Source: Nannocystis bainbridge (GTDB lineage Bacteria; Myxococcota_A; Polyangia; Nannocystales; Nannocystaceae). From it: a stretch of DNA of 64,000 nucleotides. A program made the translations under genes and the position numbers. Where the stretch lies: positions 288,001 to 352,000 of the forward strand of contig NZ_JAQNDL010000002.1 of assembly GCF_028368995.1 (NCBI RefSeq), given 5' to 3'. Position 1 is the stretch's first letter. Every line of letters begins with the position of its first letter. Under the pieces are notes generated by a model. That model searched no databases, was not told the DNA's origin, and worked only from the letters and a program-made list of their open reading frames with translations. Of the stretch, positions 2,303 to 64,000 are shown one piece after another.

Positions 2303-3020
2303 GGTCGCGGCGTCAGTCGCAATATCCGGGGACCCGGGCCATGCGGCCGCCGTCGCCGACGATGACGCGGCGCTCGCCGTCGGCGAGCCTGCGCGCCCAC
2401 GGCGCGCTCCAGGCCTCGAGCTCGGGCTCGTCGAGCAGCACGAGGTCGTAGACGCGGCCGTCGGCGCCCAGCGCCGTGACCCGCGTCGGGCCGCGGCTTC
2501 GCGGGGCGAGCGCTGCCGCGCGGCATGGCTCTTCGGTATACGGTCGCTCGATGCCCGGTCACCGCCAGGAGGGGCGGATTCTTGCGCAATCTGGGGCGAC
2601 GATCGGCTTTTGACGATCGTTCGAGGGCGGTGGATGGCCTGAAGCGGCGCACTGGCGCGAGGTCATGCTGCATCGAGCGAGACTGGGCTGCCCGGACGCA
2701 TGGAATGATTCGCGCGCCTGGGGTGGCGATGCTGCGCGGATGAAATGTCATGACATGGCCTCGGGGCAGGCGGTGCGGATGAGGCGTTCCACCATTACCT
2801 CTGGCGCCCAAATTTTCGGACCGCTCGGGCGGATTGCTGCGAGCTGGCCGGAGGGACAGGCGGAGACTGCGCCGGGGCCGGGCGTTCGGATGGCGGGAGG
2901 TGCCGCGGGTCACGGCGTGCGGGCGCGAAGGGGCGCGAGAGCGGGAGCAGGGCCGGCGTTCGCAGCGCGGGCGCGGCCGTTCGGCTGCAGGGGCGGCGAG
3001 GCGGGCAATCTCTCGCGGCC

Positions 3021-3608
3021 ATGAACCGACGAACCTTCCGCCACGCTGCGAGCCCACGCGCCTCTCGATGGCTCCTGCTGCTCCTCATGTCCGCCTGCTC
3101 CCGCGGGAGCTTCGGCGGCGAGGTGACGAATCCCGACACGGCCCCGCCCGAGCCGGGTGGGGCGAGCTCGGGCGCGGAGAAGGGGGCGCCGGCGCCGGCG
3201 GCGACGCACGAGCGGGTCGCGTTCCAGTGGACCTCGGGCACCGATTCGCTGTCGGGCCGGATCAAGACCCAACTGCCCGGTGGCGAGGCGTTCGAGGGCC
3301 GCTATCACGAGATCACGAAGACGGCGACGGTCGACGAGTACGGCGATCTCTATGGGGCGTGGTACGCCGATCCGTGGATGGGCTCGAACTGGTACTGGGG
3401 CGGCACCTGGCCCTACTACGATAGCGTCGAGGAGTTCATCACCCGCAACACCGGCAAGGTGGTGGCCACGCTCGAGGGCGACCGCGGGACGAAGATGCGC
3501 TGTCGCTTCACGCTCGAGGACCCGGACCGCGGGATCAAGGGCGGCGGCACCGGTGAGTGCCAGCTCTCGAACGGCGAGCGGATCACGACGCGCTTCGAGC
3601 CGCAGTGA
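3021..3608 (+). CDS. Hypothetical lipoprotein
   Basis: Signal peptide ending LLMSAC; GC3-rich codons; C-terminal RCRF...GGGTGECQLSNG. Confidence 0.75.
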   Translation: MNRRTFRHAASPRASRWLLLLLMSACSRGSFGGEVTNPDTAPPEPGGASSGAEKGAPAPAATHERVAFQWTSGTDSLSGRIKTQLPGGEAFEGRYHEITKTATVDEYGDLYGAWYADPWMGSNWYWGGTWPYYDSVEEFITRNTGKVVATLEGDRGTKMRCRFTLEDPDRGIKGGGTGECQLSNGERITTRFEPQ

Positions 3609-3702
3609 GCATCGGACTCGACGACGGACCTCGAGCGGAGCGCGGCGGAGCGAGCCGTCGCGCGCTCCGCGACAGCAGAAATCACGGGACTCGTGCGCTC
3701 GT

Positions 3703-3754
3703 CGTGACGGCAGGATTCATGGGACTCGCGTGACGGCAGGATTCATGGGACTCG
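3703..3754. repeat. 26-bp exact tandem duplication
   Basis: CGTGACGGCAGGATTCATGGGACTCG occurs twice, with a degenerate copy at about 3670-3692. Confidence 0.8.
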
Positions 3755-61637: not shown

Positions 61638-62321
61638 TCAAGCGCCCCGATCGAGGGCGACGTCGAGGAAGGCGTGGCCGTCGCGCTCGAACACGGCGCC
61701 GCTGCGCAGCGCGAGCGGGCGGGCGAAGCCGGGCAGGTCGGTGACGAGGGTGTGGAACTCGCCGTGCTCGCCGCAGGGATCGACGGCGGCCGGCAGACCG
61801 GACAGCAGGGTGCTGTCGAAGCTGCGACCGAGCCATTCGGCCCCCATGCGCGCGAGGTCGACGGCGACGAGGGTCGCTCGCAGGCCACCGGCGATCATCG
61901 CCCGCGCGAGTTCACCGGTGTCCTGGCCCCACAGCGGGAAGACGGCGCGCAAACCTGTCCCTCGGAGCATGTCCTCTCGGTAAGCCCGGATGTCGGCCAG
62001 GAACAGGTCGCCGAACGCGATCGCGTCGATCTGCTCGGCGCGGGCGCGCTCGATCACCGCGCTCATCCGGGCCTGGTAGACGGCGTTGGGGCACGGGTCG
62101 GGCAGCGCGACCTGCCACAGCGGCAGGCCGAGCGCGTCGGCCTGGGCCAGCAAGACTTCGCGCGGAGTGCGGTGCATGACGACCCGGGCGTCGTCCTCGC
62201 GCGTGGTGGTGAGCAGACCGACGAGCTCGACCGCAGGGTCGCGCGCGAGCACGACGCTGGCCCACGCGGAGTCTTTGCCGCCGCTCCAGGCGAGGATCGT
62301 TCGGGCGCGCTTTCGCGGCAT
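61638..62321 (-). CDS. PP-loop ATP pyrophosphatase (diphthine-ammonia ligase/MJ0570-like)
   Basis: WSGGKDS, FGDLFL, FPLW and DPCGEHGEFHT. Confidence 0.9.
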   Translation of the reverse strand: MPRKRARTILAWSGGKDSAWASVVLARDPAVELVGLLTTTREDDARVVMHRTPREVLLAQADALGLPLWQVALPDPCPNAVYQARMSAVIERARAEQIDAIAFGDLFLADIRAYREDMLRGTGLRAVFPLWGQDTGELARAMIAGGLRATLVAVDLARMGAEWLGRSFDSTLLSGLPAAVDPCGEHGEFHTLVTDLPGFARPLALRSGAVFERDGHAFLDVALDRGA

Positions 62322-62380
62322 CACGTCGTTGGTAGCAAAGGATCGCGCGACGCGGGAGGCGGGGCGAGCGGCCGCGCGGC

Positions 62381-62410
62381 TTGACGCCGACGCGCGGGCG
62401 GGCCTACGCT
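62381..62410 (+). promoter_or_regulatory. Putative sigma70-type promoter
   Basis: TTGACG-N18-TACGCT, ending 6 nt before the leader hairpin. Confidence 0.45.
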
Positions 62411-62415
62411 GGCGA

Positions 62416-62478
62416 TGGAGGCTTAGTCCGGGCTTCCTTCTCACTCATTCTAGAAACCAGCTCGGGCGCTTACCTCCA
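62416..62478 (+). ncRNA. Structured leader or Y-RNA-like element upstream of the RING/TROVE-like gene
   Basis: TGGAGG/CCTCCA outer stem, internal loop, GTCCGGGCT/AGCTCGGGC inner stem, and 24-nt pyrimidine-rich loop TCCTTCTCACTCATTCTAGAAACC. Confidence 0.55.
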
Positions 62479-62495
62479 CCTTTTCTCCGCCGCCC

Positions 62496-64000
62496 ATGGG
62501 AGTCACGCACACCGCCACGCGCGAGGCGCTCCTGCGCCGCCAGGGGCTGGTGTTCGTGGCGCCGGGCGCGGCGACCGCGAGCGAGCGGCACCTGCAGGCG
62601 ATCGAGCTCGAGCTGGCGCAGCTCGGGTACGTGATCTCGGTGCGGCTGCGGCAGCGGCTGGCGACGCTGACGCCCGAGGAGCTCGCGCCGCACCCGCGCC
62701 TGGTCGCCGGCGCGCTGGCGGCCCAGTTCGGCGGCAATGTCCCCTACACGCCGCTGTTCCGCCGCTTCCCCGAGGATGTCCCGAAGGACACGCGCGACGT
62801 CTACCTGCACAAGGTGCTGTGTCACTTCCTGCAGACCGAGGGCCAGCCGTGCGTGTTCTGCCGCCGCGTCGGCACGACCCACGTGCTGAGCCCGTGCCTG
62901 CACGTGGTGTGCGACCACTGCTTCGACGGCGCCAACTACAGCGCGTGCCCGGTGTGCGAGCACCACGTCGACCGCAGCTCGCCGTTCTTCAAGCCGGGGC
63001 TGTTCCTGGCGCGCAGCCTGCCGAAGGAGAAGGTCCGCTTCAAGCTGCTCGACCTCGGCGAGGACCTGCCGGCCGCGGCGCGAGAGCTGTTCGAGTCGTT
63101 CTGCGCGCGCACGCAGGTGATGTCGCCGGTCGACGCGACGGACCTCGGAGCGATTGTCGACGATTTCGCCGAGCAGGTGCTGGCGTGGCTGCCGGACAAG
63201 ATCGCGGTGCGTGAGAACGTGGCGCGGATCTTCGGGGCGCTGCTGCGCAAGTGCAACGCGCCGGCCACGTTCGCGATGGCACAGGCGCACCTGGCGACGG
63301 CGACCGACGTGCTGCGCACGCTGGCGGTTTATTCGGGCGCCGATCCGTCGTTGCAGGGCGCGACCGTGAAGCGGCTGGTGGCGCGGCCGAAGGAGGGCGC
63401 GGCCGAACCCAGCGGGCTGGCCGCCCGGATCGAGAAGATCTTCGCCGGCGGCCGGCGACTGCCCAAGGCGGAGACGGTGTCGGTGCCGATCCACGCGTAC
63501 CGCTTCAAGGTGGGGCCGCTGCGCCGGCCGCTGCGGCGGGCGCTGCTGGCCCACCTCGAGGCGATGCACCCCGACGGGCTGGTCGAGGACATGCTGCGCC
63601 ACCGCTCGTACTGGCAGTGGGTCGGCAAGTTCCTGCATCCGCACGAGTTCGCCGAGCAGTTCCCGCAGGTGGCGCGCGCGTTCGCGGTGGTGCGCAAGAA
63701 GGCGCCCGACGGCACGCCGGCGCCGCGGTTCATCGGCTTCCACGCGGCGATCGAGGCGGCGGCGCGGGCCGGCGACGCGCCGGCGATGATCGAGAAGCTG
63801 CGGCAGCGACCGGGCGAGCTCGGGCGCCGCTTCGACCACGCGCTGCGGATCGCGGGCGCCGACGCGGCGGCGCAGGACGTGGTGATCTCGGCGTTCGTCG
63901 CGGCGGCGCCGCGGCTGGCGAACCCGCTGCTGCTGACGTTGCACGGCCACCTGCCGACGCGCGGGCGGCCGGCGGCGGTGCGGCTGTTCTGGCCCAAGGG
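62496..64000 (+). CDS. MXAN_6230/SCO0854-type Prok-RING_4 protein with TROVE-like repeats (3' truncated; absent from ORF track)
   Basis: Translated by hand from ATG 62496: LLRRQG, ELAQLGY, TPLFRRFPEDVP, CVFC...PCLHVVCDHCFDGANYSACPVC, TATDVLR, LHPHE and RPGELGRRFD. I saw no stop before the window edge. Confidence 0.88.
   Translation, partial: MGVTHTATREALLRRQGLVFVAPGAATASERHLQAIELELAQLGYVISVRLRQRLATLTPEELAPHPRLVAGALAAQFGGNVPYTPLFRRFPEDVPKDTRDVYLHKVLCHFLQTEGQPCVFCRRVGTTHVLSPCLHVVCDHCFDGANYSACPVCEHHVDRSSPFFKPGLFLARSLPKEKVRFKLLDLGEDLPAAARELFESFCARTQVMSPVDATDLGAIVDDFAEQVLAWLPDKIAVRENVARIFGALLRKCNAPATFAMAQAHLATATDVLRTLAVYSGADPSLQGATVKRLVARPKEGAAEPSGLAARIEKIFAGGRRLPKAETVSVPIHAYRFKVGPLRRPLRRALLAHLEAMHPDGLVEDMLRHRSYWQWVGKFLHPHEFAEQFPQVARAFAVVRKKAPDGTPAPRFIGFHAAIEAAARAGDAPAMIEKLRQRPGELGRRFDHALRIAGADAAAQDVVISAFVAAAPRLANPLLLTLHGHLPTRGRPAAVRLFWPK

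What the first reader, a model, noticed from the sequence alone, without database searches (positions are those of the whole stretch)
62381..64000. Y-RNA-like hairpin leader directly ahead of a RING/TROVE-like gene: candidate Ro-like RNP or autoregulatory RNA
Seen: a putative promoter is followed at once by a 63-nt element whose 5' and 3' ends pair through two stems and an internal loop, closing a pyrimidine-rich loop that is unusual in this GC-rich DNA. ATG follows 17 nt later with no obvious SD. Known: Prok-RING_4 proteins were described with ROT/TROVE-like repeats and often a C-terminal TerD domain, and Ro60/TROVE proteins bind Y RNAs that have an end-paired stem and a pyrimidine-rich loop. 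Inference: the protein binds this cognate RNA, either to regulate itself or as a sensor linking RNA damage or phage to a prokaryotic RING ligase-like output. I know of no characterised RNA for this family.
Basis: partly seen in the sequence, partly recalled or inferred. Interest (0 to 1): 0.8.

Follow-up and report, generated by a model that had tools for sequence, protein, structure and literature searches.

The report
Mini Y-like RNA beside RING-Ro60-like gene
A small, strongly conserved hairpin RNA sits next to a gene for a RING-finger protein whose body folds like the RNA-binding Ro60 ring, so the pair looks like a new bacterial relative of the Ro60/Y-RNA particle.

Summary
At 62417-62477 (+) a 61-nt two-helix hairpin follows a sigma-70-like promoter and precedes, by 18 nt without a Shine-Dalgarno, the start (62496) of an 870-aa protein of NCBIfam NF041916 (MXAN_6230/SCO0854 RING family). 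On its own the fold is not significant (z -1.49). Comparison settles it. A covariance model finds the element on the gene's strand beside 73 of 79 homologous loci from at least five phyla, and beside Streptomyces, Bacillus, Vibrio and Variovorax homologues. Pairing is 93-100% with compensatory changes in 8 of 15 pairs, and the loop word CUUCCUUCU is invariant in 77 of 77 RING-linked copies. It matches no Rfam 15 family. The protein model (pLDDT 86.5) has a Ro60/TROVE-like ring: the three best of 48,161 PDB chains are all Ro60, Z 12.0, 10.7 and 8.4. It also has a TerD domain (Z 16). RING-less paralogues carry the same stem module, mostly downstream of the gene, with its own promoter-like hexamers in two loci and an intrinsic terminator in three. 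In three loci that module encloses tRNA-like arms that match Rfam YrlA below threshold. Best reading: a minimal Y-like partner RNA that here also forms the mRNA leader. Binding and expression remain untested.

The parts
62381..62386 (+). -35-like hexamer TTGACG of the RNA's promoter
   Evidence: Sequence. In 39 of 74 RNA copies with 60 nt or more upstream, a TTGACA/TAnnnT pair with 16-18 nt spacing ends 5-9 nt before the stem. Among 1540 random anchors, 49 had such a pair, spread over 0-24 nt.
62405..62410 (+). -10-like hexamer TACGCT, 18 nt after the -35 and 6 nt before the stem, so the predicted start of transcription falls at or next to the first G of the hairpin
   Evidence: not detected by the stricter generic scan.
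62417..62477 (+). Minimal Y-like RNA hairpin. Outer stem 62417-21/62473-77, conserved internal loop 62422-25/62468-72, covarying inner stem 62426-34/62459-67, apical loop 62435-58. The conserved word CUUCCUUCU at 62433-41 overlaps the last two bases of the inner stem.
   Evidence: Fold; model R1 87.7 bits, E 4.6e-20; covariation; 77 matches on 73 of 79 homologous loci; no Rfam family.
62478..62495 (+). CU/U-rich spacer ACCUUUUCUCCGCCGCCC between hairpin and start codon. It has no SD and no separate terminator hairpin, so a possible weak U-tract lets transcripts read through into the gene.
   Evidence: The same short-spacer architecture occurs in 32 of 77 copies (45 nt or less to the protein match). 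At least 21 of 77 copies instead have a hairpin of -9 kcal/mol or stronger plus a U-rich tract in the spacer.
62496..64000 (+). First 501 codons of the 870-aa RING / Ro60(TROVE)-like / TerD protein gene, which continues to G000:C3:353108, 1108 nt beyond the window. The RING is residues 116-165 (62841-62990). The Ro60-like ring starts near residue 188 (63057).
   Evidence: NF041916 E 9.5e-296; PF14447 E 4.3e-18; AF2 pLDDT 86.5, pTM 0.85; Ro60 and TerD fold matches. All eight RING Zn ligands are invariant or nearly so in 53 sequences.

Best explanation
The hairpin is a minimal member of an undescribed class of Y-like non-coding RNAs. Each is genomically coupled to a Ro60-fold protein family: RING + TROVE-like ring + TerD (NF041916), and RING-less paralogues. 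Shown: the RNA is a conserved, covarying two-helix structure with invariant single-stranded nucleotides. It travels with the protein gene across phyla and is the only conserved neighbour. The protein's core has the Ro60 fold. Inferred: the RNA is transcribed from its own promoter with its 5' end at the base of the stem. Its stem and internal loop dock on the TROVE-like ring as Y RNAs dock on Ro60. The invariant CUUCCUUCU loop is either a second contact with the protein or a tether for another factor or RNA. In this Nannocystis window no terminator separates RNA and gene. The same structure is therefore also the 5' leader of the RING mRNA, 18 nt from an SD-less start codon, where binding by the protein would hinder the ribosome and give negative autoregulation. 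A second, free-standing copy (G000:C2:2029606-2029687) would supply RNA in trans. The RNP probably acts in RNA surveillance or damage response, with TerD as a ligand or Ca2+ sensor and the RING as output. That last step is the least supported.
For: RNA reality: 100% pairing with 3 compensatory pairs in 14 MAFFT-aligned copies. In 75 distinct copies 99.3% of cells pair and 127 cells changed on both sides, against 27.9 in shuffles (that alignment is model-fitted). An independent RNAalifold run gives the same structure. CUUCCUUCU is invariant in 77 of 77 model matches and 20 of 20 diverse copies, including AT-rich Bacillus.

Coupling: R1 hits 73 of 79 loci of protein homologues, always on the gene's strand. 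Four of the six misses have under 10 nt upstream. In 73 Nannocystaceae genomes the RNA is in 17 and the protein in 19, and all 17 RNA-positive genomes are protein-positive. In 151 Myxococcota genomes the RNA is in 4, all with the protein or a paralogue. No flanking protein family is shared beyond one genus (at most 5 of 79 loci). The neighbours here are divergent or convergent.

Independent gene rather than only a leader: it lies downstream of RING-less paralogues, with promoter-like hexamers ahead of it in two loci and an intrinsic terminator after it in three. It also lies downstream in Variovorax and Vibrio. There are tandem units (L154 x3, L156 x2, L138 x2). A solo copy in this genome is followed by a hairpin and a convergent gene. 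Promoter-like sites are phased 5-9 nt before the stem in 39 of 74 copies. Terminators follow at least 21 of 77 copies.

Link to Y RNA: paralogue-linked RNAs start with the same module (GGxGG-CUAU-8 bp-UUCCUUCU) and enclose T and D arms that match YrlA RF02553 at 37.8, 32.5 and 31.1 bits.

Protein: Ro60 ranks 1-3 of 48,161 chains (Z 12.0 with 268 aligned residues, 10.7, 8.4). For the full model Z is 11.8-13.6 over 362-376 residues. Twelve of the 30 invariant columns of the ring domain are arginines.
Against: There are no expression data: no RNA run is on record. There are no binding data, and the tools cannot model protein-RNA complexes. The Ro60 likeness is fold-level only: Pfam TROVE gives no match at E of 1 or less, and a sequence profile against PDB finds only RING fingers. 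Z of 12-13.6 lies in the range the tool warns can arise among helical repeats. No RNA of this class reaches the YrlA gathering score, and the window copy gives no YrlA or Y_RNA match even at E of 10 or less. The reported Ro-binding motif GNCGAAN0-1G (passages of PMC4201824) is absent. In this window there is no terminator and the start codon is 18 nt away, so this particular copy could act only as a leader. Whole-genome counts rest on a filtered first look, which missed weak copies later found with filters off.
Confidence: 0.68

Rival explanations
1. It is purely a cis-acting 5' leader. It would be a protein- or ligand-responsive attenuator or translational operator of the RING gene, working like a ribosomal-protein leader or a riboswitch, with no role in trans.
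For: In RING-bearing loci it is upstream and on the same strand in 73 of 73 loci with a hit, and 72 of these lie within about 310 nt. The conserved 'aptamer-like' hairpin is followed either by an intrinsic terminator plus SD (at least 21 of 77) or directly by an SD-less start codon 8-25 nt away. That is the variety of expression platforms typical of cis-regulators. In the window itself it must be part of the mRNA.
Against: The same module lies downstream of the gene in RING-less paralogues, in Variovorax and in Vibrio. A solo copy is unlinked to any such gene. Tandem units have promoter-like signals of their own. There is continuity with tRNA-like YrlA-type RNAs. None of these is expected for a leader only.
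Confidence: 0.15
2. It is an RNA antidote in a type III toxin-antitoxin-like or defence module. The RNA, made in excess thanks to the terminator, holds the RING-TerD protein inactive. Loss of transcription, for example on phage infection, frees the protein.
For: The architecture promoter - RNA (1-3 copies) - terminator - protein gene resembles toxIN (recalled). The module is two-part and self-contained, with patchy distribution (19 of 73 genomes and 8 of 151). It is carried on large plasmids, including a conjugative one. TerD domains are discussed as signal sensors in conflict systems (passages of PMC7159879 and PMC7824862).
Against: The protein shows no nuclease or other toxin domain. The RNA copies are not short processed repeats. 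0 of 42 pattern matches in viral contigs are real copies. PADLOC was not searched.
Confidence: 0.08
3. It is a trans-acting base-pairing sRNA. Its invariant CU-rich loop is a seed that pairs with purine-rich (SD-like, AGAAGGAAG) sites in mRNAs, and its linkage to the RING gene is regulatory only.
For: The 9-nt single-stranded stretch is invariant in all lineages, whatever their GC content. It resembles an anti-SD. Some terminator-type loci have SDs such as GGAGAAGG before the RING start.
Against: Short-spacer loci, including this window, have no SD to pair with. Strict co-inheritance with one protein family across phyla fits a protein partner better. The one specific target tested, SRP RNA domain IV, has a mismatch in this genome.
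Confidence: 0.07

Closest known systems
Ro60 (Rsr) / Y RNA ribonucleoproteins of bacteria (YrlA, YrlB, Yrn1)
   Same: A small RNA whose 5' and 3' ends pair in a stem with a conserved internal loop is encoded next to a Ro60-fold protein gene, on either side and often in several copies (PMC4201824: abstract and passages). Relatives of this RNA next to RING-less paralogues carry tRNA-like T and D arms like YrlA. One lineage sits beside rtcR with a sigma-54 promoter. The Salmonella RNA-repair operon is regulated by RtcR (abstracts of PMC7790460 and PMC9879122); that this operon also carries rsr and the yrl RNAs is recalled.
   Different: The protein has an N-terminal domain plus a RING finger and a TerD domain, and gives no Pfam TROVE or vWA_Ro60 match. 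The RNA is shorter (61-63 nt core) and lacks the tRNA-like domain and the GNCGAAN0-1G motif. Instead it has invariant GGCU-N-AG and CUUCCUUCU. The same genome also has a canonical Rsr with five YrlA copies, and neither RNA model cross-detects the other class.
Rfam YrlA (RF02553) and Y_RNA families
   Same: General hairpin plan; sub-threshold YrlA matches for the paralogue-linked forms (31-38 bits).
   Different: The window RNA has no match at E of 10 or less. None reaches the gathering score of 69 bits. It would need a family of its own.
Type III toxin-antitoxin loci such as toxIN (recalled)
   Same: A promoter, structured RNA copies, a terminator that sets the RNA:protein ratio, then the protein gene.
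   Different: There is no endoribonuclease toxin and no short tandem repeats. The RNA may also lie downstream of the gene.
Autoregulatory leaders of ribosomal-protein operons (recalled)
   Same: In this window the structure sits in the 5' UTR, 18 nt from the start codon, where a bound protein could block initiation.
   Different: Here the element also exists with its own promoter-like and terminator signals, as a solo copy, and downstream of the gene.
Eukaryotic Ro52 (TRIM21, RING E3) with Ro60 in the SSA/Ro antigen (recalled)
   Same: A RING finger and a Ro60 ring linked to Y RNA.
   Different: Here they are fused in one bacterial polypeptide. No homology between the RING parts beyond the RING fold was tested.

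Membership tests
Y RNA (functional class) | Encoded adjacent to a Ro60/TROVE protein gene | tested here: met
   It lies next to a Ro60-fold protein gene in 73 of 79 loci and in further phyla.
Y RNA (functional class) | 5' and 3' ends pair in a long stem with a conserved internal loop or bulge that holds the Ro binding site | tested here: inconclusive
   An end-paired stem with a conserved internal loop is present. Whether it is a binding site is untested.
Y RNA (functional class) | Length 80-130 nt (PMC4201824, passage) | tested here: inconclusive
   The core is 61-63 nt. With the downstream terminator seen in other taxa it would be about 100 nt. The true ends are unknown.
Y RNA (functional class) | Bound by the Ro60-type protein in cells | not testable with these tools
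   No RNA-protein modelling is available, and no RNA-seq or CLIP data exist.
Rfam YrlA RF02553 | Score at or above the gathering threshold (69 bits) | tested here: not met
   The window copy has no match at E of 10 or less. Paralogue-linked forms score 31.1-37.8 bits. Canonical copies elsewhere in the genome score 50.9-74.5 bits.
Rfam YrlA RF02553 | tRNA-like domain (T and D arms) | tested here: not met
   The window loop is only 24 nt. The domain is present in L167, L168 and L169 RNAs that share the stem module.
Rfam YrlA RF02553 | GNCGAAN0-1G motif near the 5' end (PMC4201824, passage) | tested here: not met
   The 5' strand reads GGAGGCUUAGUCCGGG. The consensus is G-R-AGGCU-N-AG.
Ro60 / TROVE proteins | Pfam TROVE (PF05731) or vWA_Ro60 match | tested here: not met
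   No match at E of 1 or less. The canonical Rsr of the same genome matches both families.
Ro60 / TROVE proteins | Ro60-type helical-repeat ring fold | tested here: met
   Domain model (pLDDT 90): 2nvo Z 12.0 (268 aligned, rmsd 5.0), 9l5y Z 10.7, 1yvp Z 8.4. These are ranks 1-3 of 48,161 chains and the next is Z 7.6 over 98 residues. Full model: Z 11.8-13.6.
Ro60 / TROVE proteins | C-terminal vWA domain | tested here: inconclusive
   The full-model alignment runs to residue 870 against Ro60 residue 528, but a TerD domain occupies 580-758. The C-terminal part was not folded alone.
NCBIfam NF041916 RING_SCO0854 | Score above the 600-bit cut-off over the full length | tested here: met
   983.4 bits, residues 9-869.
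Pfam Prok-RING_4 (PF14447) | Domain match and complete C3HC4 ligand set | tested here: met
   65.4 bits against a cut-off of 27. C119, C122, C134, C139, C151 and C154 are invariant, and H136 and C142 are conserved in 90% or more of 53 sequences.
TerD domain | TerD beta-sandwich fold | tested here: met
   3ibz Z 16.0, 160 aligned, rmsd 2.9, model residues 580-758; Foldseek probability 1.00. There is no Pfam TerD match.
Type III toxin-antitoxin | Endoribonuclease toxin that processes a tandem-repeat RNA | tested here: not met
   No nuclease domain by Pfam or by fold. The RNA units are 60-130 nt structured genes, mostly single.

The most novel reading that the evidence does not exclude
The RING-Ro60-TerD protein and its mini Y RNA form a self-contained bacterial RNA-damage or infection sensor. 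The RNA gates the Ro-like ring, and TerD reads a Ca2+ or nucleotide-derived signal. The RING finger then couples recognition of aberrant RNA to a ubiquitin-like or other protein-marking output. This would be a one-polypeptide bacterial counterpart of the eukaryotic Ro52(TRIM21)/Ro60/Y RNA trio. The universally invariant CUUCCUUCU loop would act as the adaptor for the target or an effector.
Probability: 0.15. Interest if true: 0.92.

Novelty: new variant of a known kind. Interest (0 to 1): 0.8.

Why it matters
Ro60/Y RNA particles are a long-studied but still poorly understood RNA-surveillance system, and in people an autoantigen. Two things are suggested here. First, the Ro60 fold in bacteria extends to a large, widely distributed family that Pfam does not recognise as TROVE; it was found in Myxococcota, Pseudomonadota, Planctomycetota, Verrucomicrobiota, Acidobacteriota, Actinomycetota and Bacillota. 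Second, this family has its own compact RNA partner, defined by covariation and absent from Rfam. That gives a simple two-gene system, often plasmid-borne and in culturable Streptomyces, Massilia, Variovorax and Bacillus, in which three questions become directly testable: what a bacterial RING finger does, how a Y-like RNA controls a Ro-like ring, and what TerD senses. The 9-nt loop, invariant from Bacillus to Nannocystis, is a sharp handle for experiments. No paper in the held library mentions SCO0854 or MXAN_6230 or links YrlA with TerD or a prokaryotic RING.

Tried and rejected
1. Single-sequence folding statistics: z -1.49, not significant.
2. Generic promoter/terminator scan of 62000-62800: 0 sites.
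3. Rfam E-value scan of 62200-62700: only three chance-level hits at E 6.8-9.6.
4. RNA-seq: no RNA holder listed for the stretch. Read laying was not run, because only contigs with small shares were on offer.
5. Sequence searches for TROVE: phmmer and a 53-sequence profile against PDB find only RING fingers.
6. Conserved neighbouring protein genes: none beyond genus-level synteny. Downstream ORFs here are on the other strand. The solo copy's neighbours have no Pfam match apart from a distant histidine kinase.
7. Phage carriage: 42 exact pattern matches in viral contigs, 0 confirmed by R1. About that many are expected by chance for 16 fixed bases (my rough estimate).
8. SRP RNA as a pairing target of the loop: this genome's SRP RNA reads GGAAGGUAGC, which gives a central mismatch. 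Dropped.
9. Burroughs et al. 2011 (PMC5938088; PMID 21547297) and PMC5062991 could not be read.
10. Earlier findings of this scan: nothing.
11. My first label of 'solo' for the G028, G030 and G048 copies was wrong. They lie 82-146 nt upstream of the RING gene, with a GC hairpin between.
12. The first terminator script was too crude, with misses and hits inside coding sequence. It was replaced by the RNAfold-based count, which is a lower bound.
Full report
**What is in the window.** The window is G000:C3:288001-352000 of an 11-Mb genome. Its RING protein is 83% identical to one from Nannocystis exedens. The sequence reads as follows:

- TTGACG at 62381-86, then 18 nt, then TACGCT at 62405-10, then 6 nt.
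- A hairpin at 62417-62477. GGAGG pairs with CCTCC. An internal loop CUUA/GCUUA follows. A 9-bp stem pairs GUCCGGGCU with AGCUCGGGC. The apical loop is 24 nt and pyrimidine-rich.
- A spacer, ACCUUUUCUCCGCCGCCC.
- ATG at 62496.

An in-frame TAG at 62451 excludes an earlier start. RNAfold reproduces the structure, but it is not better than shuffles (z -1.49). The generic promoter scan sees nothing. Rfam 15 has no family that matches. On this one sequence alone, the finding would be unproven.

**The gene.** The ORF runs off the window. The full gene (L004 997-3609) encodes 870 aa. It is an NF041916 'MXAN_6230/SCO0854 family RING domain-containing protein' (983 bits). The only Pfam domain is Prok-RING_4 at residues 119-164. 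The upstream gene is divergent (Diphthami_syn_2). The downstream genes, an epimerase and a molybdopterin oxidoreductase, lie on the opposite strand. RNA plus gene therefore form an isolated unit.

**The RNA is real.**

- A DNA search of the genome found a second copy of the leader, and only of the leader, at G000:C2:2029558-2029684. This copy has a TTGACG box and the hairpin, followed by a further stem-loop and a convergent gene. No RING gene is nearby.
- Fourteen copies from six genera of the family, aligned with MAFFT, pair in 196 of 196 cells, with three compensatory pairs.
- A covariance model R1 was run on 79 loci fetched with the protein alone. It gave 77 matches on 73 loci, all on the gene's strand, at E 1.6e-9 or lower.
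- Of the six loci without a match, four have fewer than 10 nt upstream. One has 166 nt upstream, and one holds only a partial gene.
- By record titles, the loci come from Myxococcota, Oxalobacteraceae and other Pseudomonadota, Planctomycetota, Verrucomicrobiota and Acidobacteriota.
- In the model-fitted alignment, 99.3% of cells pair and 127 cells changed on both sides, against 27.9 in shuffles.
- An independent MAFFT/RNAalifold run on 20 diverse copies predicts the same two helices. Eight of 15 pairs show both-side changes, and 93.3% of cells pair, against 42-52% when the partner is slid.
- The consensus is G-R-AGGCU-N-AG, a variable stem, GCUUCCUUCU, a loop, AG, the stem's partner strand, then CG-N-UU-N-CCU-Y-C. 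CUUCCUUCU is invariant in all 77 copies.

**Co-occurrence with the protein.**

- In 73 genomes of the family, the RNA is in 17 and the protein in 19. All 17 RNA-positive genomes have the protein.
- In a sample of 151 genomes of the phylum, the RNA is in 4, and each has the protein or a paralogue.
- No other protein family recurs in the flanks beyond one genus.
- Homologues on replicons in the plasmid collection carry the motif too. It lies upstream in two Streptomyces linear plasmids and upstream of a RING-less 'TerD family protein' on a conjugative Bacillus mycoides plasmid. It lies downstream in Variovorax and in Vibrio vulnificus.

**More than a leader.** The spacers fall into two designs.

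- In 32 of 77 copies the protein match begins 45 nt or less after the stem. The spacer is U/CU-rich and has no SD. This is the Nannocystis type, including the window.
- In at least 21 of 77 copies a hairpin of -9 kcal/mol or stronger plus a U-rich tract follows the element, then an SD and the start codon.

Further observations point to an independent RNA gene:

- Some loci have tandem units, each with its own TTGACA/TGTACAAG box or its own terminator (L154 x3, L156 x2, L138 x2).
- Promoter-like hexamer pairs end 5-9 nt before the stem in 39 of 74 copies. Only 49 of 1540 random anchors have such a pair, and there it falls at no preferred distance. This places the predicted 5' end at the base of the stem.
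- RING-less paralogues tell the same story. They are about 700-820 aa and 28% identical; the Zn ligands are lost and they have no Pfam match. In most such loci examined (five of eight) the RNA lies downstream of the gene. In L162 and L161 promoter-like hexamers precede it. In L163 it begins 8 nt after the stop codon, with no room for a separate promoter. A clear intrinsic terminator follows in L163, L161 and L168.

**The link to Y RNA.** An Rfam E-value scan of five paralogue loci gave YrlA (RF02553) matches of 37.8, 32.5 and 31.1 bits, against a gathering score of 69. The sequences show RNAs that begin GG(C/U)GG-CUAU, then an 8-bp stem, then UUCCUUCU. They then hold a T arm (GGUUCGA.UCC) and a D arm (GGUAGCUCA..GGUAGAGC), and close with the complementary strands. 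One locus (L167) has three RNAs in a row upstream of the paralogue: a full tRNA-like form, an intermediate form, and a minimal form like that of the window. The window's hairpin is thus the stem module of a YrlA-type RNA without the tRNA-like domain.

The same genome also has a canonical Rsr (vWA_Ro60 E 2.4e-22, TROVE E 1.2e-8). Directly downstream lie five tandem YrlA matches of 50.9-74.5 bits, one of them above the gathering score of 69. R1 does not detect those, and the YrlA model does not detect the window RNA. The genome therefore seems to hold two separate Ro/Y pairs.

**The protein.** The AF2 model of the full protein, built from 53 sequences, has pLDDT 86.5 and pTM 0.85.

- Foldseek finds TerD (probability 1.00) and D. 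radiodurans Rsr (probability 0.99, E 0.033).
- VIA-align gives TerD Z 16.0 for residues 580-758. Six Ro60 entries score Z 11.8-13.6 with 362-376 aligned residues over 187-870. The next helical repeat scores Z 7.7 over 95 residues.
- The helical domain alone (residues 175-545, 57 sequences, pLDDT 90.0) was compared with 48,161 representative chains. The only three with Z of 8 or more are all Ro60. They are Rsr 2nvo (Z 12.0, 268 aligned), phage phiLo Ro60 (10.7) and Xenopus Ro (8.4).
- Twelve of the 30 invariant columns of this domain are arginines.
- Sequence methods do not see the relationship. A pairwise BLAST with the genome's own Rsr gives only E 0.039.

**Mechanism.**

*Shown:* a conserved structured RNA; its strict genomic coupling to a Ro60-fold protein family; and promoter-like and terminator signals of its own in many taxa.

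*Inferred by analogy with Ro60/Y RNA* (PMC4201824: abstract and passages): the stem and internal loop bind the ring, and the invariant loop is a second contact or a tether.

*In this window:* the element is also the mRNA leader, so autoregulation is plausible, and the solo copy could act in trans.

*A hint at function:* in Variovorax, a TGGCAC-N5-TTGCA sigma-54 promoter precedes the gene, and rtcR lies in the divergent cluster. The Salmonella RNA-repair operon is likewise regulated by RtcR (abstracts of PMC7790460 and PMC9879122); that it also carries rsr is recalled. The Variovorax records are four closely related plasmids, so they count as one observation.

*Unknown:* the role of the RING finger and of TerD.

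**Novelty.** The system is a new variant of a known kind, the Ro60/Y RNA RNP. The new elements are a new RNA class and a RING- and TerD-bearing Ro60-fold family. Searches of the held library found no paper with SCO0854 or MXAN_6230, and none joining YrlA with TerD, 'prokaryotic RING' or 'Ro60 paralog'. The 2011 paper that defined the prokaryotic RING families could not be read, so it may already note the TROVE-like repeats.

**Limits.** No expression or binding evidence exists. Whole-genome RNA counts use a filtered first look. MAG taxonomy is taken from record titles. The chromosomal SCO0854 and MXAN_6230 loci themselves were not examined.

Noticed in passing
G000:C1:3854060-3856595 (outside the window; L171-L174): A canonical Ro60 locus. 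An Rsr-like ORF of 541 aa (vWA_Ro60, TROVE) is followed by five tandem YrlA matches (74.5, 65.5, 59.6, 58.2 and 50.9 bits). Short hairpin Y-like RNAs with the CGAAUGC motif lie between them.
   Followed up: partly
G000:C2:2029606-2029687 (L005 about 3575-3725): A free-standing second copy of the RNA. It has a TTGACG box and is followed by a stem-loop (CUUCGGACAUGCC...GGCAUGUCCGAAG) shared with a convergent 1717-aa ORF that has no Pfam match. Only one other Nannocystis genome (G036) shows a weak second copy (42.6 bits).
   Followed up: partly
L219 (Variovorax sp. WDL1 plasmid 2) 1412-1428 and 4119-4300: A sigma-54 promoter TGGCAC-N5-TTGCA lies ahead of the RING family-4 gene, with rtcR in the divergent cluster. 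Downstream lie a small ORF, a TATAAT box, two CUUCCUUCU RNAs and a terminator.
   Followed up: partly
L167 (G153:C35) 170-590: Three different Y-like RNAs stand in tandem upstream of a RING-less paralogue: one with T and D arms, one with a T arm only, and one minimal. The Rfam tRNA model bridges two of them at 36.8 bits, but ARAGORN finds no tRNA.
   Followed up: partly
L084 (MAG Nannocystaceae) spacer 2865-3000: About eight copies of a 9-nt tandem repeat (GACCCGTAG-like) lie between the RNA, a GC hairpin and the RING start codon.
   Followed up: no
L115 (Massilia rubra) 279-354: The RNA with its own terminator lies 2.6 kb upstream of the RING gene instead of next to it. The intervening DNA was not examined.
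   Followed up: no
G037:C2:3789179-3791757: The RING gene matches the family model in two pieces (positions 2-289 and 272-842). This may be a frameshift or only a split HMM match.
   Followed up: no
window 61638-62321 (-): A divergent neighbour encodes a Diphthami_syn_2 (PF01902) protein, E 5.4e-28. It is conserved only within the genus.
   Followed up: no
L161 4474-5532 (-), L162 5431-6522 (+): In two genomes of genus g12, a metallo-beta-lactamase-fold gene (Lactamase_B_2) follows the paralogue-linked RNA on the same strand. It is absent in G048.
   Followed up: no
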